Assembly (NCBI GenBank): GCA_964414345.1
Contig: CAYPWF010000005.1
Location: 6,974-70,973 of the forward strand
Length of the DNA stretch: 64,000 nucleotides
Direction of reading: 5' to 3'
Source of the DNA: an uncultured Desulfarculaceae bacterium
GTDB lineage: Bacteria > Desulfobacterota > Desulfocorpusculales > Desulfocorpusculum
Positions 5,243 through 21,694 of the stretch are shown in pieces. The notes under the pieces were generated by a model. The model searched no databases, was not told the origin of the DNA, and saw nothing but the letters and a program-made list of their open reading frames with translations. Within the stretch, counting starts at the first letter, position 1, and the number at the start of each line of letters is the position of its first letter. Made by a program: the position numbers and the translations under genes.

Positions 5243-5251
5243 CTCGGGGTT

Positions 5252-5285
5252 CCTCTGGTCTATCTGGTCTGTTCCGTCTATTTCG
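5252..5285 (-). promoter_or_regulatory. AGACCA-repeat leader element immediately 5' of the bamI RBS
   Basis: The mRNA strand reads CGAAATAGACGGAACAGACCAGATAGACCAGAGG-AACCCCGAG-ATG. It is a shorter version of the element at 4233-4284. Confidence 0.5.
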
Positions 5286-5345
5286 ACTGTTTGGCCCATG
5301 GGGCGCAACGGCCCTTGGAATCGTCTTCTTTCCGTGTCCGCGCCT

Positions 5346-7262: not shown

Positions 7263-7271
7263 TGTCCCGTC

Positions 7272-7739: not shown

Positions 7740-7841
7740 ACGGTTTCTCTTTTAGTGATTTTTTTATCATCCAATCCGCATTGAATTTATGCCTGTCAGA
7801 CGGACCAAGCAATTTACCTCCCCGGTCCCCCAGGACTGCCT

Positions 7842-8606
7842 TCAAGCCAAGGCAAAGCTCTTGGCCTCTCCGTCATACCTTATAAGACCTTTTCTGGAAA
7901 GGCCTATGAGCTGCTTGGATACTTGAGAGCCGCTAAGCCCCAGTCGCTCGGCTATCTGCCCTGTGGAAAGAGGGGTTCTTGCAAGCAGAAGAGCTATCTC
8001 CTGTTTTTCCAATTCCTCCAGGATGGTCTGGCGAATCAGAGCCTTGCCCTCCTGGCTCCCGAAAAACCTCACATATTCTTGCTCAGACCTTGAAAGCTTG
8101 AGCCTTTCCGCCATGGCAAGCCTTATGTAGGGAACCAGCCTTGCAGCAGCCTCCAGGCCGATTCCAACTCTAGCCTGGTCGGCCCCCTCTCCTGTACCCA
8201 GGGGCCCGAGCTTGGTCAGCTTCTTGGCAAAGTCATTCATTACCTCGGCGAACCTAATCCCTTCGGAAGCGCTCACCCACTCCAATCTGAGCCTCTCAGG
8301 ACTCAGGCCTATGTGTTCCAGGATTGCTTTCCCCACATATACCATGCCCAAGGCGTCATAATTCCCCTCTGTAATGTAATGGCACTCTCCGGGCCAACAT
8401 CCGCCTATGAAGACCCCGTCCGCCCCACCTGTGAAGGCCTTCAGTACGAAAGAGATATCTACCCTGCCGGAGCACATTAAACGCACCAGCCTCACGTAAG
8501 GAGGGTACTGATAACGGGAAACCCCTGCCAAATCCGCCCCTGCGTAACAACACCAGTTGCAGGAAAACCCTATTATCCTGGGCTTGAATTGAAAACCAGC
8601 GCTCAT
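7842..8606 (-). CDS. bamF: BamF-like: MvhD (methyl-viologen-reducing hydrogenase delta)-type domain with a C-terminal winged-helix-like extension
   Basis: Start at MSAGFQFKP with a GGAGG RBS, 4 nt after the bamE stop. MvhD motifs FSCNWCCYAGADLAG, RLMCSGRVD and FIGGCWPGECHY. The C-terminal ~110 aa contains TGQIAERLGLSGSQVSKQLIGLSRKGLIRYDGE, which is wHTH-like. Confidence 0.8.
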   Translation of the reverse strand: MSAGFQFKPRIIGFSCNWCCYAGADLAGVSRYQYPPYVRLVRLMCSGRVDISFVLKAFTGGADGVFIGGCWPGECHYITEGNYDALGMVYVGKAILEHIGLSPERLRLEWVSASEGIRFAEVMNDFAKKLTKLGPLGTGEGADQARVGIGLEAAARLVPYIRLAMAERLKLSRSEQEYVRFFGSQEGKALIRQTILEELEKQEIALLLARTPLSTGQIAERLGLSGSQVSKQLIGLSRKGLIRYDGEAKSFALA

Positions 8607-8610
8607 GATC

Positions 8611-11600
8611 TTAACGTCCTCCGGTTCCCGTGGCCTTTTTTTCCTCTTCCAGGTTTTGCTCCAGATCAAAAAGCAGTCCTTCTATCTGTGCGTACACTTG
8701 CTCGTCCTTGTAATGCTTGAGGAAAATGGCCCCTGTGGGACACTTGGTGTTGCAAAGCCCGTCCCCTTTGCAAAGCACAGGATTCACGCTGGCCTTTCGG
8801 CCCTGGGGGGTGTCGCGGAACTCTATGGCCCCATAAGTACAGCAGGAGATACAGGCCCCACAGCCCACACACCTCTGCTCCTCCACATCACAGACGGATC
8901 CAGAGGCCACTATTCTGTCCTGGGAAAGCAGGGTTAGGACTCGGCCGGCAGCGCCATAGGCCTGGGAGACAGCCTCTGGAATATGCTTTGGATAGTGGGC
9001 AATGCCGCAAAGATAAACCCCGTCAGCTCCGAAATCCACAGGCCTGAGCTTTACATGAGCCTCCTGGAAAAATCCGTCCGGGTTTAGGTTCACCTTGAAC
9101 AACTGGGCCAACTCCCTGGTTTTGGCCGAGGGGATAACTGCCGCCGCCAAGGCCACTAGATCAACACTTAGTTCCAGTTTCTTGCCCAGCACATAGTCCG
9201 GACAGCTCACTTTAAGGACACTTCTGCCTTCCTCTGTGGCCGCCTCAACCTCGGGCATACTCTGGGGTTCATACCTTATGAATCTAACACCTTTTTCGGC
9301 CGCTTCTCTGTAAGAGTCCTCCCTGAAGCCATAGGTCCTCATGTCCCTGAAAAGAACGTAGACGTCCAAAGCGGGGTTCAGCTCCTTGAGCAGAAGGGCG
9401 TTTTTCACCGAATGGCTACAGCATATTCTGGAGCAGTAATTCCTCTCCTGATTCCTGCAGCCCACACACTGGATCATGGCAATGCTTTGGGCTCCCAGAA
9501 TCCTTTCATCCTTCTTGGCTATGAGCTCTTCCAGCTCTATGTTGGTAAGCACCCTGGGATCTTGCCCGTAGAGATATTCGGTGGGCTTGTACTCCTCTGC
9601 TCCTGTGGCTATCACAGCCGCCCCATGCCGGATCTCCTGCATTCTCCCCTGCGACCTGACACTCGTTGTGAAATTGCCCACATAGCCCTTGCAGCCCAGG
9701 ATGGAGGCCCCAAGGAGCACGTGTATCAGGGGATGCCGGTTGACCTTTTCAATGAGATGTCCCAAATAGTTCTGGACGTCTATTCCCTCCAGGGTGTAAT
9801 GGAGCCTTCGCGCTATCCCTCCCAGCTCATCCTCCTTCTCCAGCAGGTACACTTCATGGCCCTGCTCCGCTATGCTGAGGGCGCAGGTCATACCCGCAAT
9901 CCCACCTCCCACAACCAGGGCCCTCTTGTCCACAGGAAGGTAGAATTCTTCCAGAGGCTCCAGCATCGTGCTTCTGGCCACAGACATTCTGACTATGTCC
10001 TTGGCCTTCTCTGTGGCCTCCTCTTTCTCCCTGGAGTGGACCCAGGAACAATGCTCCCTGATGTTAGCCATGTCAAAGAAATACTGGTTGATGCCGGCCA
10101 TGCGCAGGGTGTCCCTAAACAAGGGCTCGTGTGTCCTTGGAGTGCATGCAGCCACTATCACTCTGTTGAGGCCCTTCTCCTGTATGGTGTCCGCTATGGC
10201 CTTGGCAGAATCGCTGGAGCAGGAGAAAAGCTGCTCCTGGGCATGGGCCACATGGGGTAGGCTTAGGGCGTAATCCACCACAGAGGGGACATCCACCACA
10301 CGTCCTATATTGGCCCCACAGTGGCAAACAAAAACTCCCACTCTGGGTTCCTCTTGGGATACATCTCTCTCAGCAGGGTAAACCCGCTCAGTGGCCAGCT
10401 TTCCTCGCCTTCGCCTCAAGAGCTCCCCGCATTTTGAGCCGGCTCCGCTTGCACTCACAACGCTCTCTGGTATGTCCACTGGCCCCTGGAAGGCGCCGCT
10501 TACATAGATGCCGGGACGGGTTGTCTCTATGGGATTGCCTGGGTTTGTTTTGCAGAAACCGTGCTCATTCAGCTCTATGCCGAATATCTTAGCCAGATCC
10601 TCTGCCCCCGCGGGCGGCCTCAGGCCCACGGACAAGACCACCATGTCAAACTCCTCTTCCTTGACCCCCTCCTCGAAGGTGGAATACCTTATTCTTACCC
10701 CTTTGGTCTCAGGGTTCTCCCCAACCACCGAGACGTAGCTTCTCACAAACCTGATACCCGGCAAGCGCTCTGTTCTTTGGTAAAACCTCTCGAAATCCTT
10801 CCCGTAGGATCGGATGTCGTTGTGGAATATGGTGCATTGGGCCTCGGCGTCATGATCCTTGGTAAGGATCACCTGTTTTTGGGTGTATGTGCAGCAGACC
10901 GCCGAACAGTAGCTGTTCCCCCCCGGCAAAACGGTCCTGGAGCCCACGCAATGGATCCAAGCCAGCTTCCTGGGATGTTTTAGATCCGAAGCCCTTCTTA
11001 TCTCCCCCTCATAGGGACCAGTGGAGCAAAGTATCCTCTCGTACTCCAGGCTGGTGACCACATTGTGGAAACGGCCGTAACCGTACCGCTCCAACATCTG
11101 CCGGTCCACTATTTTGTAGCCTGGAGACAGTATGACAGCCCCCACCTTCACTTCCACCCTCTCTGGTTTCTGGGTGAAATCTATGGCCTTGTTCTTACAT
11201 ACGGTCTGGCAGATCCTACATTTCTTTTCCTTGAGATAAAGGCAGTTCTCGTCGATGTATGTGACCAGGGGGATGGCCTGTGAAAAGTATATGTGGATGG
11301 CCTTGTTCTTGGATATGTCCTGGTTGAAGGGATCGGGGACTTTCACAGGGCAATATTCCACGCAGGTTGTACAGCCGGTGCACACATCCTCCAACACATA
11401 CCTGGGCTTTTTCACCAGGGTCACTCTAAAGTCCCCGGGTTCTCCCTCAAGCCTCTCCACCTCCGTATAGGTCATGATCTCTATGTTCTGGTGCCTGCTG
11501 CATTCGATGAACTTGGGAGACTCTATGCACATGGAGCAATCATTGGTGGGAAAGGTCTTGTCCAGAAGAGCCATGTGTCCGCCTATGGCCGGAGACTCCT

Positions 11601-11745
11601 CTACAAGAAAGACCTTGAAGCCTGCTGTGCCCAAATCCAGGCAAGCTTGGATGCCGCTTATCCCGGCCCCCACCACCATCACATCTGCACAATTGGCGGT
11701 GGAAAGTTTCTCCAGCAACTTCATCATCTCAGAACGGATTTCCAT
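8611..11745 (-). CDS. bamE: BamE-like: tandem double-FAD HdrA-like flavoprotein with multiple 4Fe-4S clusters (1044 aa)
   Basis: Two dinucleotide-binding motifs (VVGAGISGIQACLDLGTAGFKVFLVEE and VVGGGIAGMTCALSIAEQGHEVYLLEKE), the HdrA-type CSMCIESPKF, and a C-terminal ferredoxin CVGCGACISCC...CKGDGLCNTKCP. The size matches the ~110-kDa BamE. Confidence 0.85.
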   Translation of the reverse strand: MEIRSEMMKLLEKLSTANCADVMVVGAGISGIQACLDLGTAGFKVFLVEESPAIGGHMALLDKTFPTNDCSMCIESPKFIECSRHQNIEIMTYTEVERLEGEPGDFRVTLVKKPRYVLEDVCTGCTTCVEYCPVKVPDPFNQDISKNKAIHIYFSQAIPLVTYIDENCLYLKEKKCRICQTVCKNKAIDFTQKPERVEVKVGAVILSPGYKIVDRQMLERYGYGRFHNVVTSLEYERILCSTGPYEGEIRRASDLKHPRKLAWIHCVGSRTVLPGGNSYCSAVCCTYTQKQVILTKDHDAEAQCTIFHNDIRSYGKDFERFYQRTERLPGIRFVRSYVSVVGENPETKGVRIRYSTFEEGVKEEEFDMVVLSVGLRPPAGAEDLAKIFGIELNEHGFCKTNPGNPIETTRPGIYVSGAFQGPVDIPESVVSASGAGSKCGELLRRRRGKLATERVYPAERDVSQEEPRVGVFVCHCGANIGRVVDVPSVVDYALSLPHVAHAQEQLFSCSSDSAKAIADTIQEKGLNRVIVAACTPRTHEPLFRDTLRMAGINQYFFDMANIREHCSWVHSREKEEATEKAKDIVRMSVARSTMLEPLEEFYLPVDKRALVVGGGIAGMTCALSIAEQGHEVYLLEKEDELGGIARRLHYTLEGIDVQNYLGHLIEKVNRHPLIHVLLGASILGCKGYVGNFTTSVRSQGRMQEIRHGAAVIATGAEEYKPTEYLYGQDPRVLTNIELEELIAKKDERILGAQSIAMIQCVGCRNQERNYCSRICCSHSVKNALLLKELNPALDVYVLFRDMRTYGFREDSYREAAEKGVRFIRYEPQSMPEVEAATEEGRSVLKVSCPDYVLGKKLELSVDLVALAAAVIPSAKTRELAQLFKVNLNPDGFFQEAHVKLRPVDFGADGVYLCGIAHYPKHIPEAVSQAYGAAGRVLTLLSQDRIVASGSVCDVEEQRCVGCGACISCCTYGAIEFRDTPQGRKASVNPVLCKGDGLCNTKCPTGAIFLKHYKDEQVYAQIEGLLFDLEQNLEEEKKATGTGGR

Positions 11746-11968
11746 ATCTCATCCCCTCATGGTTGAAAACCTAGGCCAGAACCATCCAAACCATACCATA
11801 CGCCAAAGTCCCTCATCGGGGGTTAAACCCCAGGCCCTTGTAAGAGCTTCACATTTTCCGACTCAAGCCCAAGCAGAACCGGAAATAAAGCTACCTATGA
11901 GCATGGACCATTTTTCATCTTGCCGTGACCCCCAAGAAGGCCCAAATCAGGCTCCTGAGCAACACAAT

Positions 11969-13129
11969 CTAAACCACCTCAGCCAAAACTTCGCTGATCT
12001 CCTTGATCTCTATCACTTCGCTGTCAGGCCTGTTGAGCCTGCTGTCTTCGAAATTGGTTATGCAGTAAGGGCAGGAGGTGACCAAGACCCTGGCCCCTGT
12101 CTCCACAGCCTGCTGGAGCCTGAGGTCAGAGAACCTCTCGTTCCTGGGGGTTTCCATCCAGATGCGCCCGCCTCCTCCCCCGCAACACAGGCTGCTTTCC
12201 CGCTGGTCGGGCATTTCCAGGAGCTCCAGCCCTGGTATGCTCTTGAGGATCTGACGGGGCTCCTCGAATACGTTGTTGTGCCTGCCCAGGTAGCATGGGT
12301 CATGGTAGGTCACGGATTTAGGGAACTCCCCTTTTACCTCCAGCCTGCCCTCCTTTATAAGCTCCCAGAGGTACTGGGAAATGTGCACCACCTCCAGGTT
12401 CATGCCCAGAGCTGGGTATTCGTTCTTGAAGGTGTGGTAACAATGTGGGGAGGAAACCAGTATTTTTCTTACTCCATGGTCTACGAAACTCTTGATGTTT
12501 TCCCTGGCCAGCCGTTTGAAAAGCTGCTCGTCGCCTGTTTTTCGGATGCTCTCCCCGCAGCAGTTCTCCTTGGGGCCCAAAATCCCGAAGTCCACCCCGG
12601 CCTTGCTGAGGATAGTGGCGGTTGCCTTGGCCACCTTTTTCAGCCTGGCATCGTAGCTTGGGTAGCAGCAAGCAAAATAGAGGATTTCGGTGCCTTCCTC
12701 GTAGCTCTTGACCGGGAGCCCATCTGCCCAGCGGGCCCTGTTGGCCCTTTCCTCGTTTAGGGGATTGCCCTGTCCAACCAGGCTTGCGCTAACCGTACGA
12801 ATGGGTTTCACCGGATTAGGGAATATGCCGTAATCCGTGGCTATCTTGCGAAGCGCCACTCCTGCCTCTATCTGATTAACACCCCTGGGACAGCGCTGGG
12901 GACAGGTCCCACAGGTGGTACAGCGCCAGATCTCCTCCCCCTCTATTTCCGTGAGACCGAAGACCCCTTCGCGGATTATCCTTCGCATGCTGAAACTGGT
13001 GACCCGGTTCCAAGGGCATACGGCATCACAAAGACCGCATTGATAGCAAAGCCTGAAGGATTCCCCCCCGGATTGCTCTACCAGCTCTATGATCTCCTTG
13101 TAAGGCGCCACGGTCTCCACTTCACTCAT
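11969..13129 (-). CDS. bamD: BamD-like: HdrD/GlcF-type Fe-S protein with 2x[4Fe-4S] and two CCG cysteine-rich domains
   Basis: CYQCGLCDAVCP and CTTCGTCPQRCP ferredoxin motifs, followed by CCG-type motifs (CCYPSYDA..., CCGESIRK, CCGGGGG). Confidence 0.8.
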   Translation of the reverse strand: MSEVETVAPYKEIIELVEQSGGESFRLCYQCGLCDAVCPWNRVTSFSMRRIIREGVFGLTEIEGEEIWRCTTCGTCPQRCPRGVNQIEAGVALRKIATDYGIFPNPVKPIRTVSASLVGQGNPLNEERANRARWADGLPVKSYEEGTEILYFACCYPSYDARLKKVAKATATILSKAGVDFGILGPKENCCGESIRKTGDEQLFKRLARENIKSFVDHGVRKILVSSPHCYHTFKNEYPALGMNLEVVHISQYLWELIKEGRLEVKGEFPKSVTYHDPCYLGRHNNVFEEPRQILKSIPGLELLEMPDQRESSLCCGGGGGRIWMETPRNERFSDLRLQQAVETGARVLVTSCPYCITNFEDSRLNRPDSEVIEIKEISEVLAEVV

Positions 13130-13240
13130 CTCCTTCCAAGGCAGGCTTCTCGATCAAGAAGCACAGGGGCTCCAGGCCCAAAGAAGCCTTGGCCCTTGTT
13201 GCGTGCCCCTCCAGGGTTCAAGGTCACTTCCCAGCCACCC

Positions 13241-13789
13241 TCATTCTTTCTTGGAAACTTTCTCACCCGAAACTCTAGCTATGGTCTCTATGACCTTCTC
13301 CATACCATATTTTTCCAAGAGGGCTTCAACACCCATCTCCAGATCCTCGGGCTTGGCATCTTCTTGCCCTTCCTCTTCCCTCTCCTCGTAGGTCAAGGCA
13401 TCCACCAAACACCACTTCACGCACATGGGCTCTTTGAGCTCCGGGTCGTCCTCGCACATGTCGCACTTGAGGGGCAGTCCTGAGTCGGGCTCCTTGAAAA
13501 GATCCCTGGAAGAGCAGGAGGCGTTACAGAAGTTGCATTCCCCGTAGTCCCTTCCGTCTATCACATAAGAATGTCTTCCGGCGCACTCGGCCTCGGCATG
13601 ATACCCGGCCCTGATAGGCAGAAAAACATTGTCCAGTTCGTCCCTAATCACCCTTATCCTGGATCTGGAAGGGTTGTTGCTGGCGTACTTTGGCGAGGAA
13701 TGAAAGGCTGAGCAGGCAACCTCGCAAGCCCTGCAGCCGTTACACTTGTCCACATCAACCTTTATGGATTTTATCTTCTTTTTTTGCAC
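13241..13789 (-). CDS. bamC: BamC-like: small poly-ferredoxin (4Fe-4S) electron-transfer subunit
   Basis: CNGCRACEVAC, CNFCNASC and CDMCEDDP...CVKWC cluster-binding motifs; 182 aa (~20 kDa); directly downstream of the AOR-family gene. Confidence 0.75.
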   Translation of the reverse strand: MQKKKIKSIKVDVDKCNGCRACEVACSAFHSSPKYASNNPSRSRIRVIRDELDNVFLPIRAGYHAEAECAGRHSYVIDGRDYGECNFCNASCSSRDLFKEPDSGLPLKCDMCEDDPELKEPMCVKWCLVDALTYEEREEEGQEDAKPEDLEMGVEALLEKYGMEKVIETIARVSGEKVSKKE

Positions 13790-13925
13790 CGTCGACTCCT
13801 TTCCCGCGGCCCGAGTCTTCCTACAAGGCCCAAAACTAATCTAAGAGTCTTCCCAGACTTCAGAACCAAGACCCCCTCACGCTGCTTCCAAACTCCTTAG
13901 ACCCAGCTTCCAAGTCTCACCCCGC

Positions 13926-15890
13926 CTACCCCTCCAGAATGCCCCTTTCCACAAAGTCCTGGTAAACATAATCCAAGCCCAGGTTCTGCAAGGTCTCCTT
14001 GGTGGGTATACCCTGGCTGTTCCAGCCCTTGTATCTGTAATATTCCTCCAAGAGCTGGTTCTCATATTCCGGGAATCTCTTTTTCCAGTGATCATCCGGG
14101 GGGCGCTCGTCCTGCCTTCTCATGCCTTTCCTTATGTTTATGGATCTGACCATGTTCCTGACCCTGCTGGCTGCGCTCCAGAGGGAATCCTCGTCCATGT
14201 CCAGACCTGTGGCATAAGAGATTAAGGGCGCCAGGTTGTGGATGTGGTATGGAGGCTTTAGAGGGAAGGAAGAAAGCCCCGCGCAAATCCCTGTGGAATC
14301 ATCTATATAGTGCATTATCTCCTGCCAGTCCACCAGGTCGCAGATCACATCCACTGAGGGATAGAAGGGAAACACCTTGCCCTCCTCACCCCACTCCAGG
14401 ATAAACTCCTTGAATTTCTCCTCTTTCCCGCTGGGCACATGCACCCAATCCCTCACGAACTCCTCCCTCACGTCCTTGGGCAGAGGGGTCTGGGGTATCT
14501 GGCCTTCGATCTGGGTGATATTTATCTTTTCCCCCGTGGACCACATGAGGAAGTAAATGGGATTCAACATGCCCAGTTTGATGGGGATCTGTTCATGCTT
14601 TTTTATGGTGTTGTGGTCAAAGGCTTCGGCCCCTTTTCCTATGCGGCGGGCCGCCCAATAAACCCCGTCGGCCAGCACATCCCCTATACCCTCTCTTCTC
14701 ACGATCCTGTCCAGGAGCCAGTTGAACTTGCCTTCGGTGTCGGAGGGCATGCCTTCTAGGTCCTTGTCGGTCAAAATCCCCGCCTCGTGAAGCTCCAGGG
14801 CAAAGGCCATGACCTGCGGGGTGGAGAACCCGTCGACCCCGTACTCCTGGGCACGGCCCGCTATTCTGAGGCCGAAGTCCAGATCGTCAGCCATGGCTGC
14901 CATCACGTAGGTCAGCTTGGAGAAGCACTTCATGGTGTAAGTGGGATAGCCTGGTATGGAGATGATGCCAGCGCAGCGCACCGGACAGTTGTAACAGCTT
15001 ATGAGCCTCTTTCTGGCCGACTCCAGAGTCTCGGTCCATTTTTTCTCCACGTCCTTGTTCCAGAAGTCCTTCCTCCTGTGCCTGGCATTCCCCCAAGCAA
15101 AGGCTATGGTGTGCCACTCCTCGTCGTGCACGGCCATTTCCTGGGGAGAGCCTATCCTGGCCAGAATCGGAGGTACACCCTTCAAGGGATTGTTAGCCCG
15201 GTGCTGTATGTATTCCAGTATCTGGTTGCATATCTCCATAAACTCGGCGGACTTGGCGATGTTAAGATCCTTGGTGCCCCGCACAGCTATGGCCTTTAGG
15301 TTCTTGTCCCCCATGATGGCCCCAAGGCCCAACCTGCTGGCGCTTCCCCTATGACTCTCTATGGAGGAGAAGAAAACCCTGTTCTCCCCAGCCAGGCCTA
15401 TGGCCATGACCTGGGCTTTGGGCTCCTTGAGCTCCTCCCTGAGCAGCTCTGCGGTCTCGTAGGTGCTCTTCCCCCTGAGGTGACTAGCATCCCTTATCTC
15501 CACCTTGTCGTTGTTTATCCAGATGTACACCAGCTCAGGCGACTTGCCCCTGATGACAACCTTGTCATACCCGGCGTACTTCAGCTCTGGAGCCCAAAAT
15601 CCACCCATCATGGAGTAACCCATGAGCTGGGTCTGGGGTGAAATGGAGGAAATTATGGTCCGGTTGGCTCCAGGGGCCGGGGTGCCACAGAGGAGCCCTG
15701 AGCTGAATATGAGGAGGTTTTCGGGGGAGAAAGGCTCTACCTCCGGAGGTACCCTGTCCCACAACATCTTGGAATTGGTTCCAAGCCCACCCAGGTAAAG
15801 CGGAGTAAGCCTCGGGTCGGTCTCCACCCTCTCTATGCTTCCTCTGGACAGATCAATTTCCAGGTTGAACCCTGTCTCGGCATACCTCAT
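13926..15890 (-). CDS. bamB: BamB-like: aldehyde:ferredoxin oxidoreductase (AOR)-family tungsten/molybdenum-pterin enzyme. Candidate active-site subunit of class II benzoyl-CoA reductase.
   Basis: 654 aa; AOR-family N-terminal domain (MRYAETGFNLEIDLSRGSIERVETDP...LGGLG...) and an AOR-type C-terminal domain; sits at the head of the bamBCDEFGHI-ordered operon. Confidence 0.8.
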   Translation of the reverse strand: MRYAETGFNLEIDLSRGSIERVETDPRLTPLYLGGLGTNSKMLWDRVPPEVEPFSPENLLIFSSGLLCGTPAPGANRTIISSISPQTQLMGYSMMGGFWAPELKYAGYDKVVIRGKSPELVYIWINNDKVEIRDASHLRGKSTYETAELLREELKEPKAQVMAIGLAGENRVFFSSIESHRGSASRLGLGAIMGDKNLKAIAVRGTKDLNIAKSAEFMEICNQILEYIQHRANNPLKGVPPILARIGSPQEMAVHDEEWHTIAFAWGNARHRRKDFWNKDVEKKWTETLESARKRLISCYNCPVRCAGIISIPGYPTYTMKCFSKLTYVMAAMADDLDFGLRIAGRAQEYGVDGFSTPQVMAFALELHEAGILTDKDLEGMPSDTEGKFNWLLDRIVRREGIGDVLADGVYWAARRIGKGAEAFDHNTIKKHEQIPIKLGMLNPIYFLMWSTGEKINITQIEGQIPQTPLPKDVREEFVRDWVHVPSGKEEKFKEFILEWGEEGKVFPFYPSVDVICDLVDWQEIMHYIDDSTGICAGLSSFPLKPPYHIHNLAPLISYATGLDMDEDSLWSAASRVRNMVRSINIRKGMRRQDERPPDDHWKKRFPEYENQLLEEYYRYKGWNSQGIPTKETLQNLGLDYVYQDFVERGILEG

Positions 15891-16031: not shown

Positions 16032-16052
16032 ACTAGTCTCTTTGCGACTAGT
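16032..16052. promoter_or_regulatory. Operator-like site ACTAGTCTCTTTGCGACTAGT (two ACTAGT palindromes, 15-bp centre spacing) upstream of bamB, with an adjacent ACCAGATAG motif at 16058-16068
   Basis: Near-identical to the site upstream of padR at 21506-21528. Located in the 220-bp gap between the activase-gene stop (16110) and the bamB start (15890). Confidence 0.55.
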
Positions 16053-16109
16053 ATCAATCTATCTGGTCCCTGAAAGCTTGTCAACACTTTTTTTGATTCC
16101 GGAGATGGT

Positions 16110-17006
16110 TCAGGAAGAAAGCTGGACCCCATGGGTCTTTTCAAACCTTGGGTTTTTTTCTAAGAGGGACTTGGCAAACACAGCAGCTCCAATGGCCCCG
16201 GCCAGCTGCGTGTCGTATCTGGGTTGAAGGCTCTTGAGTCCCAACTCCCTCTCCACCCGCGCCACAACCCCTGAGTTCTTGGCTATGCCCCCTGTGATGG
16301 CGAACTCCCTCTCTACCCCGATCCGTTCCAGCAGCAGAACCACCCTGCGAGCCATGGCCAAGCAGTAAGCTGCAGCGACCTTTTCCCTGGACCAACCAGA
16401 TCTAAGGAGCCTTGAGGCCTCGCTCTTGGCGAACACCACACAAGTGCTGCTCACAGCAGGAGGCTCCTGTTCCACCTTCAGGGAAAGCTCTCCCATCTCC
16501 TCAAGGGGAAGGCCCATTAATTCAGCCAGGACCTCGATCCCCCGGCCAGTGCCGGCGGCACACTTGTCGTTCATGATAAAAGACAGGACCTTTCCTTCCT
16601 GGTCACAACGGATTGCTTTACAGTCCTGCCCTCCCATGTCCAGAATCGTGCGCACCGAAGAGCCGTAAATGAAATTAGCTCCTTTGGCGTGACAGGCTAT
16701 TTCGGTTACCGTGCGATTCGCAAAGGGTATGTTGACCCTTCCGTATCCGGTCCCAACGATGTAATGAATCTCTCCTAGGGTTAGGCCTGTGTTCTCCAAG
16801 GCCCACTCCATGGCCCTTGTGGCGCTCTTGGCGCTTTGGGAGCCTGTATGGATGTTGGAGTAACAGTAGAGTTGCCCGTCAAGCATTACTACGGCTTGGG
16901 TGCTCACAGAGCCTACATCCACTCCGGCGGTTATTAGCTTGGCTTTTCTCCAGTCCAGATCAGGGGAGTTCCATCTGACCTCAGCCCATGTTGAAAACCC
17001 TGACAT
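16110..17006 (-). CDS. BadF/BadG/BcrA/BcrD-family ATPase (HgdC-type CoA-substrate-specific enzyme activase), copy 2
   Basis: ITAGVDVGSVSTQAVVML ASKHA-fold phosphate-1 motif; NDKCAAGTG cluster-bridging motif; 298 aa. Confidence 0.75.
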   Translation of the reverse strand: MSGFSTWAEVRWNSPDLDWRKAKLITAGVDVGSVSTQAVVMLDGQLYCYSNIHTGSQSAKSATRAMEWALENTGLTLGEIHYIVGTGYGRVNIPFANRTVTEIACHAKGANFIYGSSVRTILDMGGQDCKAIRCDQEGKVLSFIMNDKCAAGTGRGIEVLAELMGLPLEEMGELSLKVEQEPPAVSSTCVVFAKSEASRLLRSGWSREKVAAAYCLAMARRVVLLLERIGVEREFAITGGIAKNSGVVARVERELGLKSLQPRYDTQLAGAIGAAVFAKSLLEKNPRFEKTHGVQLSS

Positions 17007-17094
17007 GCCTCGCTCCTGCCTTATGCCTTGCAGCCTGTCTGAGAACCGGCCTTTCTCCCAAGCCGTAATTGGTCACCTGTGGGGATGGCTTACC

Positions 17095-17865
17095 TCAAAC
17101 CTTCTCAGCCCCGAGGAGCGCTGCCCCCAAGGCACCTACCAGCTCGGGCTGCTCGGGAACCTTCACCTCAACTCCCAAAAGCCTGCTTAGGGCCTGCACC
17201 ACCCCAATATTTCTTCCCACACCCCCCACCAGCAGCACCTCGGGTTCCACCCCGACCCGCCTCACCATGGAGGCTATCCGCTCGGCAATGGCGTCATGCA
17301 CGGCCCGAGCCATGTCGGGTTTGGGGGTGTTGGCGTGCACCAGAGAAATAACCTCGCTTTCTGCGAAAACAGTACACTGGGCATTGATGCAAACCTGCTT
17401 TGTGGCCTCCAAGGCCAAAGGGCCCATCTCTTCCAGCTTCACCTCCAGGGCCCTGGCCATGGTTTCCAAAAAAACTCCGGCTCCAGCAGCACATCTGTCG
17501 TTTATGACAAAATCAACCAGCCTCCCACGGCTGTCGGTCCTAAGAGCCCTGGCCTCCTCTGCCCCCACATCTATGACCGTTCTGGCATTGGGGGAAAAAT
17601 ACACGGCTCCTCTGGCATCCGCGCTCACCTCGGTTACGGTGTCGTGGTGAAAGCCCACCTGTTGCTTGCCGCATCCAGTGGCCACAACCCTTTGCACCTT
17701 TTCCTTTGGGACTCCGGCTACATCCAGGGCTTCCCCATAAGCCTTTTCCACTGCAGCAGCTGTATCCCCTCCGGCCACAACCAGACTCCAGCCAAGTATC
17801 CCAGACTCTCCCAGAATCACAACCTTCACAGTTTTGGCTCCGCAGTCCACCCCTGCTGTTATCAT
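17095..17865 (-). CDS. BadF/BadG/BcrA/BcrD-family ATPase (HgdC-type activase), copy 1
   Basis: Start at MITAGVDCGAKTVKVVILGESG; NDRCAAGAG motif; 257 aa. Confidence 0.75.
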   Translation of the reverse strand: MITAGVDCGAKTVKVVILGESGILGWSLVVAGGDTAAAVEKAYGEALDVAGVPKEKVQRVVATGCGKQQVGFHHDTVTEVSADARGAVYFSPNARTVIDVGAEEARALRTDSRGRLVDFVINDRCAAGAGVFLETMARALEVKLEEMGPLALEATKQVCINAQCTVFAESEVISLVHANTPKPDMARAVHDAIAERIASMVRRVGVEPEVLLVGGVGRNIGVVQALSRLLGVEVKVPEQPELVGALGAALLGAEKV

Positions 17866-18130
17866 CCCAGCGCTCCTGAATCCAAGCCTAACCCCCCCAA
17901 GCCCCATCCGCAAAGAAAGAGAAAAACCCGGTCATCCCAAAAAGAAATTATCACCGGCCCAGGTTCCTGCACAAGCTAAGAGGTCACATTTTTTCACCTA
18001 CAGATAATCAGGCTCCATTCTCCTGGGGAGGCACGGCCCCCATTTCAGGGGGCTTGAGCGACCTGTATCTTTTTTTCCGAAAAGAAAACCTGTCAAGGGA
18101 ATCGGCCGGGCCTAAGAACACAGGTACCCA

Positions 18131-18622
18131 CTAGTCCAGATCCACCTGAGTCTTGCACTTGTTGCACCTCATGGCCCCACGGAAAAGCTTCTGGCCGCAT
18201 TGGGGGCAAAGGTACCTGGCTTCCTCATCCTGGACCCACTTCTCGGTTCCTACTTCCCGCCAATAAGGAATGGCCCTCAAGATCACCCTCTTGCCCACGC
18301 TCATGGGGAAATTCTCTATGTGCGTGCAGGGGAACTCATCACATTGGTGGCAGCCCTGGTAACCTTTCTTCTGGGTGCAGGACCTGATCTCACACTTTTT
18401 GCAGTATATGAACTGATCCTGGGAAAGGCACCCCTGGCATCTGATCTCATCTGGGGTTAGCCTCTCGCTGTTGGGGAGGGTGCCCTTTCCAGGGGAGTTA
18501 CCCTTGTAAAGCTCAACCAGTTTCTCTTTGAGCTTCTGGTTATTGTCCCTATGTGCAATGTAGATGGCACAGACCCCACAGTAGAGCCCGCACGGAGCCA
18601 GAAAATTCGGGTTCACTTCCAT
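18131..18622 (-). CDS. DUF3795-like cysteine-rich protein (putative metal/Fe-S-binding)
   Basis: Start at MEVNPNFLAPCGLYCGVCAIY. CxxC pairs: CGLYCGVC, CQGC, CKKCEIRSC, CHQCDEFPC, CPQC and CNKC. Confidence 0.55.
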   Translation of the reverse strand: MEVNPNFLAPCGLYCGVCAIYIAHRDNNQKLKEKLVELYKGNSPGKGTLPNSERLTPDEIRCQGCLSQDQFIYCKKCEIRSCTQKKGYQGCHQCDEFPCTHIENFPMSVGKRVILRAIPYWREVGTEKWVQDEEARYLCPQCGQKLFRGAMRCNKCKTQVDLD

Positions 18623-18743
18623 GGCATGCCCCCCTTGCTGTTCCTTTTTCTGGAACTGACTGGGTCCTTTTGGCACTGGGCTGCGAGCCGAAGGCCTGAG
18701 GCCCGAGGGCTGAATCAGATGCTCCCCATTGCCTCGGCCTATC

Positions 18744-19514
18744 TCAGCTCTCTTTCCAGACAGGCTCCCGCTTATCCAAAAAAGCCTGGAGCCCTTCGCG
18801 GGCATCCTGGGTACTCATGAGCTCCTTGAGATAGATCTCCTCGATACGGCCGAGTCCCTTTTCCCCCTGGGTGTCCCAGCCCTCTACCATTGCCTTTCGG
18901 GCCAGTCTGAGCACGACCCCGCTTAGCTTCCCGAAGCGGGAAACCCAAGCCTGGGCCTCTGCCTGGAGTTGATCCTGTGGGACTACCTTGTTCACAAGCC
19001 CTATCTGAAGGGCCTCCTGGGCTGTGACCGTCTCCCCTGATAAAACAAGCTCCATGGCCTTTTTCCTGCCGATGATCCTGGGGAAGGCCAGCGCAGCTAT
19101 GGGGGGGAAGACACCGACTTGGATCTCTGGCTGGCCGAAACGCGCCTTGTCGCTGGCCAGCACCATGTCGCAATAAGTGGCCAGCTCGCATCCTCCACCC
19201 AGGGCCGCCCCTTGCACCACGGCCAGGCTGGGCACCCCCAGGGAGTCCAGACGGCGAAAGATCCCGTGGAAGACACGAATCATGTGCTCGGCCTTGTCCC
19301 CCAGATGGTCCGCCACTTCCACACCCACAGAGAAGGCCTTCCCCTCGGCTTGGAAAACCAGCAGATTGGGGGGAGAACTCACGAGGCTATCCAAGGCTCG
19401 GATTATCTCCTCCATCATCTGGATGTTCATCCAGTTAAGAGGGGGCCTCTTCAAGGTAATCCAGGCCGCCTTTTCCTTAAGCTCCACTCCGATGAACTCG
19501 AACCCCTCCTTCAC
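18744..19514 (-). CDS. Enoyl-CoA hydratase/isomerase (crotonase) family. Candidate cyclohexa-1,5-diene-1-carbonyl-CoA hydratase (Dch/BamR-like).
   Basis: 256 aa crotonase fold with an AALGGGCELA oxyanion-hole motif; located between the oah candidate and bamB. Confidence 0.6.
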   Translation of the reverse strand: MKEGFEFIGVELKEKAAWITLKRPPLNWMNIQMMEEIIRALDSLVSSPPNLLVFQAEGKAFSVGVEVADHLGDKAEHMIRVFHGIFRRLDSLGVPSLAVVQGAALGGGCELATYCDMVLASDKARFGQPEIQVGVFPPIAALAFPRIIGRKKAMELVLSGETVTAQEALQIGLVNKVVPQDQLQAEAQAWVSRFGKLSGVVLRLARKAMVEGWDTQGEKGLGRIEEIYLKELMSTQDAREGLQAFLDKREPVWKES

Positions 19515-19597
19515 CCTTGCACCTCCTGTCCCTGAAGAGAAACCAGCACCGGAAAACCAAGGCGGGACCCAAGAGGCCCCGCCCGATTTGAATTCTC

Positions 19598-20728
19598 CTA
19601 GGCCTGCGGCTTGCCCAGAACCGCCTCTTTTAGTTCCTCGTCAAAGGGATGGGCTTGGGCCAGAAGCTGCCTGTACTTGATGAAGTCTATCAGGTCCTTG
19701 CCTGTGATCTTCTTGGTGTTGAAGGCGTGAAAGCCTAGGAAAGCCTCTGTCATCATGTTCACAGAGAGCCAGTGGCGGTTGGCCAGCTTGGTCATGTCCC
19801 AGAAGAACTTTTTCTTCATGCGGATACCGTCTATGGACTTGATAAGACAGCCTGGGAAAAGATTGGTGAAGGTCCATAGAATCTCTCCCACACACTGGTC
19901 CAGGAGGGCTAGATCCTTCTTGGCCTCCTTGACGTAAGCCCTGGCCTTGGCCAGCTCCTCCCCTTTCTTGAACTCCCCGTAGACGATCTCCCCATCCTCC
20001 ACGTACTTGTCTGTTATGACCTGGGGGTTGCGTACCCACTTGTCCCCGTCCTTGATGACCGGAACCACCTTTGAGATGAGCCCCAGTCGCTTCATCTTAT
20101 AAGCACTCCACATCTCGCAGGAGACGCAGTTCCACATGGCATCCTCCATGCTGAGGAACCATGGGAGGAAATCCGTGGAGCCCCCATCCGGCGCAGAGCC
20201 GTGGCGGGGACCGGCCTGCCCGAAAATTGCTAGGTCAGAGGCCACAGTCAGATCACAGGCCATTCCTATCTCCTGTCCGCCTGCCACCCGCATGCCGTTT
20301 ACCCTGCAAATGACGGGTTTCTTGCAATTCAAAATGGCATCCACCATGCCGTTGAACAAATCCATGTACAGGCCGTATTCCTGGGGATTGCCCCCGTAGT
20401 ACTCTGCATACTCCTTGGTGTTGCCCCCGGTGCAGAAGGCATCTGTTCCCACAGCAGTAAAAACAACGGCCACCACGCTTCTGTCCATGGAAGCCTTGTG
20501 AAACCCGGAGATGACCCCCTTTACCATCTCAGTGGTGTAGGAGTTGTATTGCCTCGGGTTGTTCAATATGACCCAGGCCGAATAAAGCCCCTCCACGGGC
20601 CGGCCTTTGGGGTCCAAAATGGGCCTTTTCTCGTAAATGGTGCAGGGGGCTTCTTTCCCAAAATGCTCATCCCCCCAAAGGTCGTGGTCTTTCATGCCTT
20701 TCTCTTTGGGCAGCCAATCCAGGGACAT
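19598..20728 (-). CDS. bamA: Crotonase-family ring-cleaving hydrolase. Candidate 6-oxocyclohex-1-ene-1-carbonyl-CoA hydrolase (Oah/BamA-like).
   Basis: 376 aa, unusually long for a crotonase (the Oah size class), with FCTGGNTKEY and MRVAGGQEIGMACD motifs; sits next to dch and the bam operon. Confidence 0.65.
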   Translation of the reverse strand: MSLDWLPKEKGMKDHDLWGDEHFGKEAPCTIYEKRPILDPKGRPVEGLYSAWVILNNPRQYNSYTTEMVKGVISGFHKASMDRSVVAVVFTAVGTDAFCTGGNTKEYAEYYGGNPQEYGLYMDLFNGMVDAILNCKKPVICRVNGMRVAGGQEIGMACDLTVASDLAIFGQAGPRHGSAPDGGSTDFLPWFLSMEDAMWNCVSCEMWSAYKMKRLGLISKVVPVIKDGDKWVRNPQVITDKYVEDGEIVYGEFKKGEELAKARAYVKEAKKDLALLDQCVGEILWTFTNLFPGCLIKSIDGIRMKKKFFWDMTKLANRHWLSVNMMTEAFLGFHAFNTKKITGKDLIDFIKYRQLLAQAHPFDEELKEAVLGKPQA

Positions 20729-20838: not shown

Positions 20839-21444
20839 TCACCCCCTCTCGGCTATCTTTCTTTGTCCCCCGAAGGCCTTCTCCCCGCCTTCCAAAAAAG
20901 CCACCTGGGACCACTCCTGACAACGCTCCACCCTATCCAACATGACGTTGAGATGGTGCAGCTCGCTTCTGAATCTATCATGATCCTTTTCCAGCACCAG
21001 GAAGCGGTTAACAGGGGTCTTCCCCCTGTACTCCTCCATCCTCTTCCTTAGGCTTCGAATGGTCTTTTCCAGCAGCACCTTTTTCTGCTTGAGGCAATCC
21101 AGAGCTTTTTCTTTATCCAAGGCGAAAATAAAAAAATATCCCAGATTGGAAAGGTCATAGGTGATGTTCTTGTCCAGGAGGGACTTCTCAACAAGCCTGG
21201 CCAGACGTTCCCGGCCCTTGGAGGTAAGGCTGTAAACACGCCTCTCTGGCATGAGCCCTTCCCTCTCCCTGCGGGAACTCACCATCCCTTGATCTTCAAG
21301 GGACCCCAGGGTCTTGTAAATCATGGGAGGGCTTATCTTGGCCCAGGAGTCCATGCGGTGGACCTTGACCAGCTGGTTGATCTGGTAGCCGTGCATGGGC
21401 TCATCCAGGAGAAAACCCATTACCACCAGCTCATACTTGGACAT
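20839..21444 (-). CDS. PadR-family transcriptional regulator with a C-terminal coiled-coil extension
   Basis: MSKYELVVMGFLLDEPMHGYQINQLVKV...YKTLGSLEDQGMV...RRVYSLTSKGRERL is a canonical PadR wHTH. Confidence 0.8.
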   Translation of the reverse strand: MSKYELVVMGFLLDEPMHGYQINQLVKVHRMDSWAKISPPMIYKTLGSLEDQGMVSSRREREGLMPERRVYSLTSKGRERLARLVEKSLLDKNITYDLSNLGYFFIFALDKEKALDCLKQKKVLLEKTIRSLRKRMEEYRGKTPVNRFLVLEKDHDRFRSELHHLNVMLDRVERCQEWSQVAFLEGGEKAFGGQRKIAERG

Positions 21445-21505
21445 CCCGGGCCTCCTCTAACGGGGCCTCCGAAATCTGCCGGAAGCCGTAAGCTAATCTA
21501 CTTCT

Positions 21506-21528
21506 GACTAGTCTCTTTGAAACTAGTC
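21506..21528. promoter_or_regulatory. Operator-like site GACTAGTCTCTTTGAAACTAGTC about 60 bp upstream of the padR start
   Basis: Same ACTAGT-N9-ACTAGT architecture and TCTCTTTG spacer as 16032-16052. Confidence 0.55.
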
Positions 21529-21694
21529 TTAGTTACCCTACATGGAATGGGATGTCAAGAGAATTTTTAGGTCTGTTTGGCACCAATGGGGGCAGGCAGC
21601 CGGGCGAATGGTATTTGATCCCAAACATCGGACTCCTCAAACCAAGCTCTCCGGCCTGGAGGCTTGACTTTGAACCCTGAACTCTCCCGGCCTC

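What the first reader, a model, noticed from the sequence alone, without database searches (positions are those of the whole stretch)
16032..16068. Paired ACTAGT-N9-ACTAGT operator-like sites upstream of both padR and bamB suggest that a PadR-family regulator controls the bam operon
The sequences ACTAGTCTCTTTGCGACTAGT (16032-16052, 5' of bamB) and GACTAGTCTCTTTGAAACTAGTC (21506-21528, 5' of padR) share two palindromic ACTAGT hexamers with identical 15-bp spacing and an identical TCTCTTTG spacer. This is the classic autoregulation-plus-target arrangement. Known benzoyl-CoA pathway regulators are BzdR/BoxR (XRE-shikimate-kinase-like), BgeR (TetR) or two-component systems. A PadR-type regulator for a bam cluster would be new.
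Basis: seen in the sequence. Interest (0 to 1): 0.7.

Follow-up and report, generated by a model that had tools for sequence, protein, structure and literature searches.

The report
PadR repressor operators in benzoyl-CoA cluster
Two copies of a 21-base palindromic site sit on the transcription start regions of a PadR-type regulator gene and of the benzoyl-CoA reductase (bamB) operon. They recur at the same places in related uncultured sulfate-reducer genomes, which points to a previously undescribed PadR-family repressor of anaerobic aromatic-ring breakdown.

Summary
ACTAGT-N9-ACTAGT occurs exactly twice in the 64 kb window, at 16032-16052 and 21507-21527, and in 0 of 100 shuffles. All the genes here are on the minus strand. 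On that strand both sites read ACTAGTnnCAAAGAGACTAGT and begin 2-3 nt after a sigma70-type promoter (A-tract, TTGACA, N17, -10). They therefore lie across the expected transcription start of padR-bamA-dch-DUF3795-2 ATPases and of bamBCDEFGHI.

A tight PadR clade (about 56-100% identity) almost always heads a bamA-dch cluster. The same motif lies at the same promoter position upstream of padR in every member whose DNA I could read (GC 43-68%). A second copy appears wherever bamB has its own promoter. In 269 kb of related loci, all 19 near-perfect matches are at these two positions.

The protein is a two-domain subfamily-1 PadR with the family's DNA-binding signature residues. The site resembles the Bacillus subtilis PadR operator (CATGT-N8-ACATG).

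The most likely mechanism is an effector-released, autoregulated repressor. Binding and the effector are untested. No paper I could search links PadR to benzoyl-CoA genes. I classify it as a new member of a known kind, of moderate interest.

The parts
16032..16052 (-). Operator O-bamB. Gene strand reads ACTAGTCGCAAAGAGACTAGT, with the palindrome extended to TACTAGTC..GACTAGTA.
   Evidence: The same 21-mer, differing only at the two variable spacer positions, lies upstream of bamB in L001, L003, L010, L016, L017 and L019; L031 carries a variant with four substitutions.
21507..21527 (-). Operator O-padR. Gene strand reads ACTAGTTTCAAAGAGACTAGT.
   Evidence: An equivalent site lies upstream of padR in L001, L002, L003, L010, L011, L015, L023/L024, L025, L026, L030, L031 and L032.
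16056..16094 (-). Putative sigma70 promoter P-bamB: A-tract 16088-16094, -35 TTGACA 16079-16084, 17-nt spacer, -10 TAGATT 16056-16061. The operator starts 3 nt after the -10.
   Evidence: The consensus scan scores it 10 of 12. The A-tract/CTTGACA block is invariant in the 11-promoter alignment. The distance from -35 to the site is 26 nt.
21530..21568 (-). Putative promoter P-padR: A-tract 21564-21568, -35 TTGACA 21553-21558, 17-nt spacer, weak -10 TAACTA 21530-21535. The operator starts 2 nt after the -10.
   Evidence: Read from the sequence. It aligns with P-bamB and with orthologous promoters. The -10 is too weak to pass the consensus scan.
20839..21444 (-). padR: 201-aa PadR-family, subfamily-1 (two-domain) regulator and the proposed repressor.
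   Evidence: PF03551 scores 53.9 bits against a cutoff of 27. A profile built on this protein and its clade hits Bacillus subtilis PadR 5x11 over profile positions 7-173. The AF2 model has pLDDT 86, and its Foldseek top hits are 5x11, 8ioi, 8jxk and VanR. Y20, Y43 and R68 are invariant.
16110..20728 (-). Genes transcribed behind padR: bamA/oah 19598-20728, dch-like enoyl-CoA hydratase 18744-19514, DUF3795 protein 18131-18805, and two BcrAD/BzdQ-type ATPases at 17095-17913 and 16110-17006.
   Evidence: TIGR03200 scores 582 bits for bamA and TIGR03192 scores 387 bits for the BzdQ-like gene. Synteny is conserved in L001, L003, L004 and L010.
4628..15890 (-). Class II benzoyl-CoA reductase operon behind O-bamB: bamB 13926-15890, bamC 13241-13789, bamD 11969-13129, bamE 8611-11745, bamF (MvhD/FlpD) 7842-8669, bamG 7272-7739, bamH 5346-7262, bamI 4628-5308.
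   Evidence: BamB scores 1041 bits against 4Z3W_A and BamC scores 233 bits against 4Z3W_E. Subunit names are assigned by analogy with the Geobacter metallireducens BamBCDEFGHI cluster (established knowledge).

Best explanation
The two 21-bp sites are operators of the PadR-family protein encoded at 20839-21444. A PadR dimer binds the inverted ACTAGT half-sites. These are 14-15 bp centre to centre, separated by an A-rich spacer that the wings probably contact in the minor groove. Each operator starts 2-3 nt after the -10 hexamer, so it covers roughly -3 to +18 of a sigma70-type promoter.

Bound repressor would therefore block open-complex formation or promoter escape at two promoters. P-padR drives padR-bamA-dch-DUF3795-2 ATPases, which makes the system negatively autoregulated. 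P-bamB drives bamBCDEFGHI. An aromatic pathway metabolite is inferred to bind the interdomain or C-terminal pocket and release the repressor. By analogy this would be benzoyl-CoA or benzoate.

What is shown: the sites, their promoter position, their conservation and their strict co-occurrence with this PadR clade, the PadR fold, and the DNA-binding signature residues. What is inferred: physical binding, the direction of regulation (repression), and the identity of the effector.
For: (1) Chance is excluded. There are 2 matches against 0.01 expected. Across 269 kb of window plus loci there are 19 hits with at most 1 mismatch against about 0.6 expected, and all 19 lie upstream of padR or bamB.

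(2) Promoter geometry is constant. An A-tract and CTTGACA precede the site, with 23-27 nt from the end of the -35 to the site in 15 of 16 promoters. P-bamB scores 10 of 12 in the promoter scan.

(3) Footprinting. In an alignment of 11 promoters from contigs of 43-68% GC, the invariant columns fall only in the -35 block and the operator, and mean column identity is 36%.

(4) The regulator and the site travel together. The PadR clade (about 56-100% identity) heads bamA-dch clusters followed either by class II bamB or by class I bzd-type reductase genes. Single-operon versions carry one site. Versions in which bamB has a separate promoter carry a second site. The nearest other PadRs (37-41% identity) precede RND efflux genes and lack the motif; two of them share a different palindrome just upstream of their padR.

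(5) The site looks like a PadR operator. The Bacillus subtilis PadR operator is CATGT-N8-ACATG with an A/T-rich spacer, bound by one dimer (PMC5728393). Here the equivalent is CTAGT-N9-ACTAG.

(6) The protein has Y20, Y43 and R68, which correspond to BsPadR Tyr20, Tyr42 and Lys67, the family's DNA-binding signature. It also has the two-domain subfamily-1 fold.

(7) padR is the only regulator gene inside the bam island.

(8) In L025 the asymmetric spacer is inverted relative to the gene, as a symmetric DNA-binding dimer would tolerate.
Against: There is no experimental binding or expression data, so everything rests on comparative genomics of uncultured organisms.

The asymmetric spacer CAAAGAG is more conserved, and more consistently oriented, than a symmetric dimer needs. 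Some of the conservation could therefore serve promoter or initial-transcript function, or another factor.

The half-site spacing is 1 bp longer than in the solved B. subtilis PadR complex.

Many of the loci are close relatives and are not independent. There are only about 8-9 clearly divergent lineages.

One clade member (P0026) sits in a different context, next to an aldehyde dehydrogenase and a molybdenum hydroxylase, and its DNA could not be read.

The -10 of P-padR is weak (TAACTA), and no transcription start has been mapped.
Confidence: 0.75

Rival explanations
1. The motif is a transcribed RNA element: a 5'-terminal stem-loop with an ACUAGU/ACUAGU stem and a conserved CAAAGAG loop. It would stabilise the mRNA or bind an RNA-binding factor, rather than act as a DNA operator.
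For: The site lies at or just after the predicted start, so most of it would be transcribed. In the window the hairpins are strong: -14.8 and -12.7 kcal/mol, with z-scores of -8 and -4. The loop sequence and its orientation relative to the gene are conserved in 15 of 16 sites.
Against: In the more divergent loci the hairpin is weak or no better than shuffles: L026 -3.3, L032 -1.7 and L031 -4.6 kcal/mol, with z-scores from -0.4 to -1.8. All substitutions in the hexamers are one-sided. C2 changes to T or G and G20 changes to A, and no compensatory pair is seen; two of the three change types break the pair. In L025 the spacer is inverted. No Rfam family matches the region.
Confidence: 0.08
2. The site is a genuine operator, but for a regulator encoded elsewhere, for example a global or TetR/BgeR-type aromatic regulator. 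PadR would then be merely a co-regulated passenger with its own unrelated targets.
For: Only about 10-20 kb around each padR could be inspected, so a distant regulator cannot be excluded. The spacer asymmetry is unexplained by a symmetric PadR dimer.
Against: The motif tracks the padR clade across different cluster architectures (class I and class II reductases) and across genomes of 43-68% GC. It is always in front of padR itself, and it is absent from the sister PadR clade. No other regulator gene is consistently nearby. The half-site type and spacing fit the PadR family.
Confidence: 0.1
3. PadR binds the sites but acts as an activator or dual regulator, as the subfamily-1 member AphA does, rather than as a repressor.
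For: The -10 elements are poor (TAACTA, TAAAAA-like), which is often a mark of activator-dependent promoters. AphA is named a 'gene activator' in its PDB entry 1yg2, and Park et al. list it among subfamily-1 members (PMC5728393).
Against: The site begins 2-3 nt downstream of the -10 and covers the expected start. That is a position typical of repressors and incompatible with class I or class II activation. The -35 is a perfect TTGACA with an upstream A-tract, so the promoter should be strong on its own.
Confidence: 0.07

Closest known systems
Bacillus subtilis PadR and its padC operator (PadR subfamily-1; PDB 5X11; Park et al. 2017, PMC5728393)
   Same: It is a two-domain protein of about 180-200 aa, with an N-terminal winged HTH and a C-terminal helical dimerisation domain. 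The Tyr/Tyr/Lys(Arg) DNA-binding signature is conserved. One dimer binds one palindrome with an A/T-rich spacer, CATGT-N8-ACATG, against CTAGT-N9-ACTAG here. It is a repressor released by an aromatic acid effector.
   Different: Sequence identity is only about 20%. The base-contacting residues His38, Ser39 and Gln40 are replaced by Pro39, Pro40 and Met41. The spacer is 1 bp longer. The target is the anaerobic benzoyl-CoA pathway rather than a phenolic acid decarboxylase. The effector is unknown, and there are two promoters, one of them its own.
VanR of Corynebacterium glutamicum (PadR subfamily-1; PDB 5Z7B and 6LG2)
   Same: It is a subfamily-1 PadR whose crystal structures were solved with the aromatic acid vanillate bound (entry titles). 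It is a structural hit for the model here.
   Different: It is only a remote relative of this protein. That it regulates aerobic vanillate catabolism is my recollection and was not checked here, as is its binding-site layout, which I did not examine.
MbdR (TetR family) of Azoarcus sp. CIB (PMC4424350)
   Same: It has the same regulatory logic for an anaerobic central aromatic pathway. A cluster-encoded repressor binds palindromic operators (ATAC-N10-GTAT) that span the start site and -10 of several sigma70 promoters, including promoters for the reductase genes and its own gene. It is released by the first CoA-thioester intermediate.
   Different: It belongs to a different protein family (TetR rather than PadR), recognises a different operator, and comes from a facultative anaerobe with a class I reductase.
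BzdR/BoxR, BadR/BadM, BamVW and BgeR: the described regulators of benzoyl-CoA pathway genes (PMC6678401, PMC4424350)
   Same: They control the same pathway. BamVW and BgeR act in obligate anaerobes (Geobacter) that carry bam genes, and BgeR represses bamA.
   Different: BadR is MarR-type and BamVW is a two-component system, as the titles cited in those papers state. None of the papers I could read describes any of these regulators as PadR-family. BgeR's family could not be checked because the paper is not held.

Membership tests
PadR family (Pfam PF03551) | Winged-HTH domain matching the PadR profile above the curated threshold | tested here: met
   PF03551 scores 53.9 bits against a gathering cutoff of 27, over residues 9-82. 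PDB profile hits are all PadR-family proteins.
PadR family (Pfam PF03551) | Conserved DNA-binding signature Tyr20 / Tyr42 / Lys67 (B. subtilis numbering; Park et al. 2017) | tested here: met
   Y20, Y43 and R68 are invariant in 21 clade members. They align to Tyr20, Tyr42 and Lys67 of 5x11. The signature is defined in PMC5728393.
PadR subfamily-1 (two-domain) | Protein of about 19-22 kDa with a separate C-terminal helical dimerisation domain (long helices alpha6 and alpha7) | tested here: met
   The protein is 201 aa. The AF2 model (pLDDT 86) has long helices at 111-139 and 145-174. Foldseek top hits are subfamily-1 structures: 5x11, 8ioi (TM 0.64-0.68), 8jxk and 5z7b. The HMM alignment to 5x11 spans residues 7-173.
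PadR subfamily-1 (two-domain) | Dimer binds a palindromic operator in or near its target promoter | tested here: inconclusive
   A conserved palindrome of PadR-like half-site and spacing sits on both promoters. Physical binding cannot be tested with these tools.
PadR subfamily-1 (two-domain) | Small-molecule effector binds the interdomain pocket and releases the DNA | not testable with these tools
   The C-terminal domain is strongly conserved (DLSNLGYFFIFAL, NRFxVxEKDxDRFxSE). No ligand information is available.
BzdR/BoxR-type benzoyl-CoA regulators | XRE-type HTH fused to a shikimate-kinase-like effector domain | tested here: not met
   The only Pfam hits on the regulator are winged-helix families (PadR, plus F-93_WHD and HxlR below their cutoffs). 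No XRE or shikimate-kinase (SKI) domain was found.
TetR-family pathway repressors (MbdR type) | TetR_N HTH domain and an all-helical two-domain TetR fold | tested here: not met
   There is no TetR_N hit, and every structural neighbour listed is a PadR-family protein.
Class II benzoyl-CoA reductase cluster (BamB-I) as the regulated target | BamB/BamC orthologues followed by HdrA/HdrBC/MvhD/NuoEFG-like subunits, with BamA (oah) nearby | tested here: met
   BamB scores 1041 bits against 4Z3W_A, compared with 219 bits against a generic AOR. BamC scores 233 bits against 4Z3W_E. TIGR03200 scores 582 bits for BamA.

The most novel reading that the evidence does not exclude
This PadR clade is the dedicated, effector-responsive master repressor of the central benzoyl-CoA pathway in Desulfarculaceae and related uncultured Thermodesulfobacteriota. 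It would be the first PadR-family regulator of anaerobic aromatic degradation. It would be used interchangeably with ATP-dependent (class I) and ATP-independent (class II) reductase clusters, and it would sense benzoyl-CoA or a dearomatised CoA-thioester, a ligand class new to the PadR family. A further twist is not excluded. Degenerate extra hexamers at 15-bp phasing, and the three good hexamers in L025, could mean that two dimers bind on opposite DNA faces rather than one canonical dimer.
Probability: 0.5. Interest if true: 0.55.

Novelty: new member of a known kind. Interest (0 to 1): 0.45.

Why it matters
Few regulators of the anaerobic benzoyl-CoA pathway have been described. For obligate anaerobes that use the tungsten-containing class II reductase, the papers read here name only the Geobacter regulators BamVW and BgeR.

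This finding is a well-supported, directly testable prediction. It comprises a regulator, its 21-bp operator, two promoters, and a clear regulon logic that holds across class I and class II clusters. That would add a new regulator family to the pathway. It would also give a marker for benzoyl-CoA gene clusters in metagenomes of sulfate-reducing and subsurface communities. And it could supply a compact repressor/operator pair for benzoate or benzoyl-CoA biosensors.

It is not conceptually surprising. Cluster-encoded, autoregulated repressors with palindromic operators are the norm for catabolic pathways.

Tried and rejected
(1) Dispersed repeat or mobile element. Rejected. There are only two copies in 64 kb. 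There are one or two exact copies per 92-213 kb metagenome contig, always at the same promoters.

(2) The seven other exact metagenome hits (L008, L009, L012, L018, L020, L021, L022). None has a padR or bam homologue. Their contexts are unrelated: 15-bp tandem repeats, a hairpin directly after what looks like the 3' end of a tRNA gene (by eye), and one repeated AT-rich element shared by three contigs. I treat them as chance.

(3) RNA hairpin or known RNA family. The hairpin is not conserved in divergent loci, there are no compensatory changes, and there is no Rfam hit.

(4) ECF sigma factor (22941-23771) as the controller. Unlikely, because the promoters carry a perfect sigma70 -35 (TTGACA). 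This is an inference and was not tested further.

(5) Looking for the motif in front of the sister-clade PadRs (L027-L029). It is absent. A different palindrome, TTATTCTAA-N-TTAGAATAA, is shared by L027 and L029.

(6) Literature. Searches for PadR with benzoyl-CoA, bam or Geobacter found no relevant paper. The BgeR paper (Ueki 2011) is not held, so BgeR's family is unverified. Two searches were swamped by unrelated meanings of 'BamA' and 'BGER', and one returned nothing.

(7) Third-hexamer idea. Degenerate hexamers at 15-bp phasing occur next to several sites, but I did not establish their significance.

(8) The whole genome of the source organism could not be scanned for more regulon members.

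Full report
**Observation.** The + strand carries ACTAGTCTCTTTGCGACTAGT at 16032-16052 and ACTAGTCTCTTTGAAACTAGT at 21507-21527.
- These are the only ACTAGT-N5..15-ACTAGT matches in the 64 kb window. The expected count is 0.01, and 0 of 100 dinucleotide-preserving shuffles reach two.
- No other spacing from 4 to 15 gives a hit, even with one mismatch.
- ACTAGT alone is at its chance frequency, 5 against 5.0. The signal is therefore the paired arrangement plus the shared spacer, with 7 of 9 bases identical.
- A search allowing 3 mismatches finds no third copy.

**Context.** All genes here are on the minus strand. Read in the direction of transcription, the order is:
- a 260-aa ORF of unknown function (21695-22477);
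- site 2;
- padR (20839-21444; PF03551);
- bamA/oah (19598-20728; TIGR03200, 582 bits);
- a dienoyl-CoA-hydratase-like ECH (18744-19514);
- a DUF3795 protein (18131-18805);
- two BcrAD/BzdQ-type ATPases (17095-17913 and 16110-17006);
- site 1;
- bamB (13926-15890; 1041 bits to the Geobacter metallireducens BamB structure 4Z3W_A, against 219 bits to a generic AOR);
- bamC (233 bits to 4Z3W_E);
- HdrBC-like bamD, HdrA-like bamE, MvhD-like bamF, NuoE/F/G-like bamG, bamH and bamI, and then a Zn-dependent alcohol dehydrogenase (ADH) gene at 3113-4213.

Everything else I annotated in the window (ORFs of 150 aa or more) looks unrelated to aromatic catabolism: proline biosynthesis, Obg, GlyS, an oligopeptide ABC transporter, glycolysis, an ECF sigma factor, and others. 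The bam island is thus compact, about 18 kb, and padR is the only regulator gene found inside it. An ECF sigma-factor gene and an HTH-domain ORF lie outside it.

**Promoter anatomy.** On the gene strand both sites read ACTAGTnnCAAAGAGACTAGT, in the same orientation.
- Upstream of site 1 the sequence is AAAAAAA-GTG-TTGACA-N17-TAGATT-GAT-[site]. The consensus scan scores this promoter 10 of 12.
- Upstream of site 2 it is AAAAA-TTCTC-TTGACA-N17-TAACTA-AG-[site].
- The operator therefore begins 2-3 nt after the -10 hexamer and should span about -3 to +18. That is the classical position of a repressor that blocks open-complex formation or promoter escape. This is an inference; no transcription start has been mapped.

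**Related loci.**
- The PadR protein has close relatives in Desulfarculaceae MAGs: L001-L004, at 75-93% identity.
- A search of 5.8 billion proteins finds a tight clade. Members are 60-100% identical to the window protein in the single-sequence search, and three more at 50-58% appear with the profile.
- The next proteins after the clade are at 37-41% identity.
- Wherever DNA could be read, clade members head a padR-bamA-dch cluster. What follows differs:
  - class II bamB genes in the window, L001, L003, L010, L023, L030 and L031;
  - class I bzd-type genes in L026 (two HGD-D plus two BcrAD) and L032 (one HGD-D before the contig ends);
  - two ATPases plus a ferredoxin and an ADH in L025.
- There is one exception, P0026, which lies next to an aldehyde dehydrogenase.
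- The 37-41% relatives precede RND efflux pumps.

**Footprinting.**
- Upstream of padR, the 21-mer or a variant with at most 4 substitutions is present in all 11 distinct readable loci: L001, L002 (which the metagenome loci L007, L013 and L014 duplicate), L003, L010, L011, L015, L023 (with its duplicate L024), L025, L026, L030, L031 and L032.
- A second copy lies upstream of bamB wherever bamB has its own promoter: L001, L003, L010, L016, L017, L019 and L031.
- Single-operon clusters have one site only. These are L023, L026, L030 and, as far as its contig reaches, L032.
- The -35 block (A-tract plus CTTGACA) precedes the site by 23-27 nt in 15 of 16 promoters.
- In an 11-promoter alignment, invariant columns occur only in the -35 block and the operator, against a mean column identity of 36%.
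- The host contigs range from 43% to 68% GC, so an AT-rich 21-mer is being maintained in a 68% GC genome.
- Across 269 kb of window and loci there are 19 matches with at most 1 mismatch in the 12 hexamer positions. About 0.6 would be expected, and all 19 are at these two promoter types.
- An exact-pattern scan of the metagenome collection returned 16 loci. Nine are padR or bamB promoters, on contigs of up to 213 kb that carry only one or two copies each.
- The other seven have no padR or bam homologue and lie in unrelated contexts. Seven is roughly the number I would expect by chance for a 19-base pattern in a collection of that size (my own estimate, not a tool result).

**Site logo (15 sites).**
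- Positions 1, 3-6, 16-19 and 21 are invariant.
- Positions 2 and 20, the C and its symmetric G, are the variable hexamer positions.
- The spacer is A-rich, with positions 10-12 and 14 almost invariant (nnCAAAgAg).
- Hexamers are more conserved than the spacer as divergence increases (CAAAGAG to CAAAAAT, TAAAGAT and CATTAAT). This is what one expects if the hexamers are base-specific contacts and the spacer mainly provides shape, or serves the initial transcribed region.
- In L025 the spacer is inverted relative to the gene, and a third hexamer is present (ATTAGT-N9-ACTAGT-N9-ACTAAT).

**The protein.**
- It is 201 aa, and PF03551 scores 53.9 bits.
- The clade profile aligns to B. subtilis PadR (5x11) over profile positions 7-173.
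- The AF2 model (pLDDT 86.4) has a winged HTH followed by long C-terminal helices. Its best Foldseek matches are all subfamily-1 PadRs: 5x11, Rv1176c (8ioi, TM 0.64-0.68), Rv0047c (8jxk) and VanR.
- Park et al. (PMC5728393) define Tyr20, Tyr42 and Lys67 as the family's DNA-binding signature. They also show one dimer on the palindrome CATGT-N8-ACATG, taken from the crystallised duplex 5'-CGGAACATGTAAATAGTTACATGATTAC-3', which has an A/T-rich spacer.
- Here Y20, Y43 and R68 are invariant and align to those residues.
- The base-reading residues His38, Ser39 and Gln40 are replaced by Pro39, Pro40 and Met41. This is consistent with a related but distinct half-site, CTAGT-N9-ACTAG.
- The C-terminal domain is very strongly conserved within the clade (DLSNLGYFFIFAL, NRFxVxEKDxDRFxSE, H164). 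This suggests a conserved ligand or dimer interface.

**Mechanism proposed.** The protein is an autoregulated repressor. The PadR dimer occupies O-padR and O-bamB and shuts both promoters. An aromatic pathway metabolite then releases it.
- Benzoyl-CoA is a candidate by analogy with MbdR and BzdR. Benzoate is a candidate by analogy with the aromatic-acid effectors of PadR and VanR.
- Confidence that the sites are operators of this PadR is about 0.75.
- Confidence that it represses is about 0.7.
- The effector identity is a guess.

**Rivals.**
- RNA hairpin. It is strong in the window (-14.8 and -12.7 kcal/mol) but not conserved in divergent loci. There are no compensatory changes and no Rfam hit.
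- A regulator encoded elsewhere. This cannot be excluded, but it is disfavoured by the strict co-occurrence of the site with the padR clade and by the PadR-like architecture of the site.
- Activator mode. The poor -10 elements favour it slightly, but the operator position argues against it.

**Comparison with the literature.** The described regulators of benzoyl-CoA pathway genes are BzdR/BoxR, BadR/BadM, BamVW, BgeR and, for the 3-methylbenzoyl-CoA pathway, MbdR (PMC6678401 and PMC4424350).
- Full-text searches for PadR together with benzoyl-CoA, bam or Geobacter returned nothing relevant. The hits were author names, the unrelated Aromatoleum 'padR' of the phenylacetate cluster, or LmrR used as a biosensor part.
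- The BgeR paper could not be opened, so its family assignment remains unverified.

**Verdict.** It is a new member of a known kind: a subfamily-1 PadR repressor with a palindromic operator and negative autoregulation, attached to a pathway for which this family has not been reported. Interest is moderate at 0.45. It is a clean prediction, ready for experiment, that is useful to the anaerobic-aromatics field and for annotating metagenomes. It is not mechanistically surprising.

Noticed in passing
window 16110-17913 and 18131-18805 (minus strand); also L001, L003, L004, L010, L025, L031: Two BcrAD/BzdQ-type ATPase genes sit inside the padR-bamA operon of a class II (BamB-I) cluster, in most of these loci with a Cys-rich DUF3795 protein. 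One of the ATPases passes the bzd-type subunit Q equivalog. These are the electron-activating module of ATP-dependent class I reductases or dehydratase activases. Among the ORFs of 150 aa or more that I annotated across the 64 kb, none is a BzdN/O (HGD-D) catalytic subunit. Their role next to an ATP-independent reductase is unexplained.
   Followed up: partly
window 16062-16067 and 21492-21497; L025 5429-5464; L023 883-918; L030 3238-3273: Degenerate extra hexamers lie exactly 15 bp out from the operator. They are ACCAGA upstream of O-bamB and ATTAGC downstream of O-padR. L025 has three good hexamers, ATTAGT-N9-ACTAGT-N9-ACTAAT. This could indicate binding of a second dimer, or it could be chance.
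   Followed up: partly
L027 5947-6001; L029 1589-1619: The nearest non-bam PadR relatives (37-41% identity) sit in front of RND efflux operons. Two of them share a different palindrome, TTATTCTAA-N-TTAGAATAA, immediately upstream of their own gene. This looks like a sister regulator/operator pair.
   Followed up: partly
window 22941-24839 (+ strand); L031 4997-6792: An ECF sigma factor and a DUF3106 protein, with a small ORF between them in both loci, lie just upstream of the padR cluster in the window and again in L031. No link to the bam genes was established.
   Followed up: no
window 21695-22477 (minus strand): A 260-aa ORF with no Pfam hit lies directly upstream of padR on the same strand. 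It is conserved at 76-96% identity at the same position in L001, L010 and L015.
   Followed up: no
window 15891-16031; L003 13494-13515: The bamB leader is 141 nt in the window, GC-rich and with hairpin potential by eye, and a leader of similar length (134-137 nt) is present in the close relatives L001 and L010. In L003 it is only 22 nt. No Rfam match was found.
   Followed up: partly
window 18744-18805: The mechanical DUF3795 ORF overlaps the end of the ECH gene by 62 nt. In most related loci the homology starts only at residues 48-61, although near-identical L017 matches from residue 1, so the real start codon may lie further downstream.
   Followed up: no
P0026 locus (no DNA available): One member of the bam-associated PadR clade (68% identity) lies between a molybdenum hydroxylase and an aldehyde dehydrogenase, with a divergently oriented AOR/BamB-like gene nearby. 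It may be a variant regulon.
   Followed up: no
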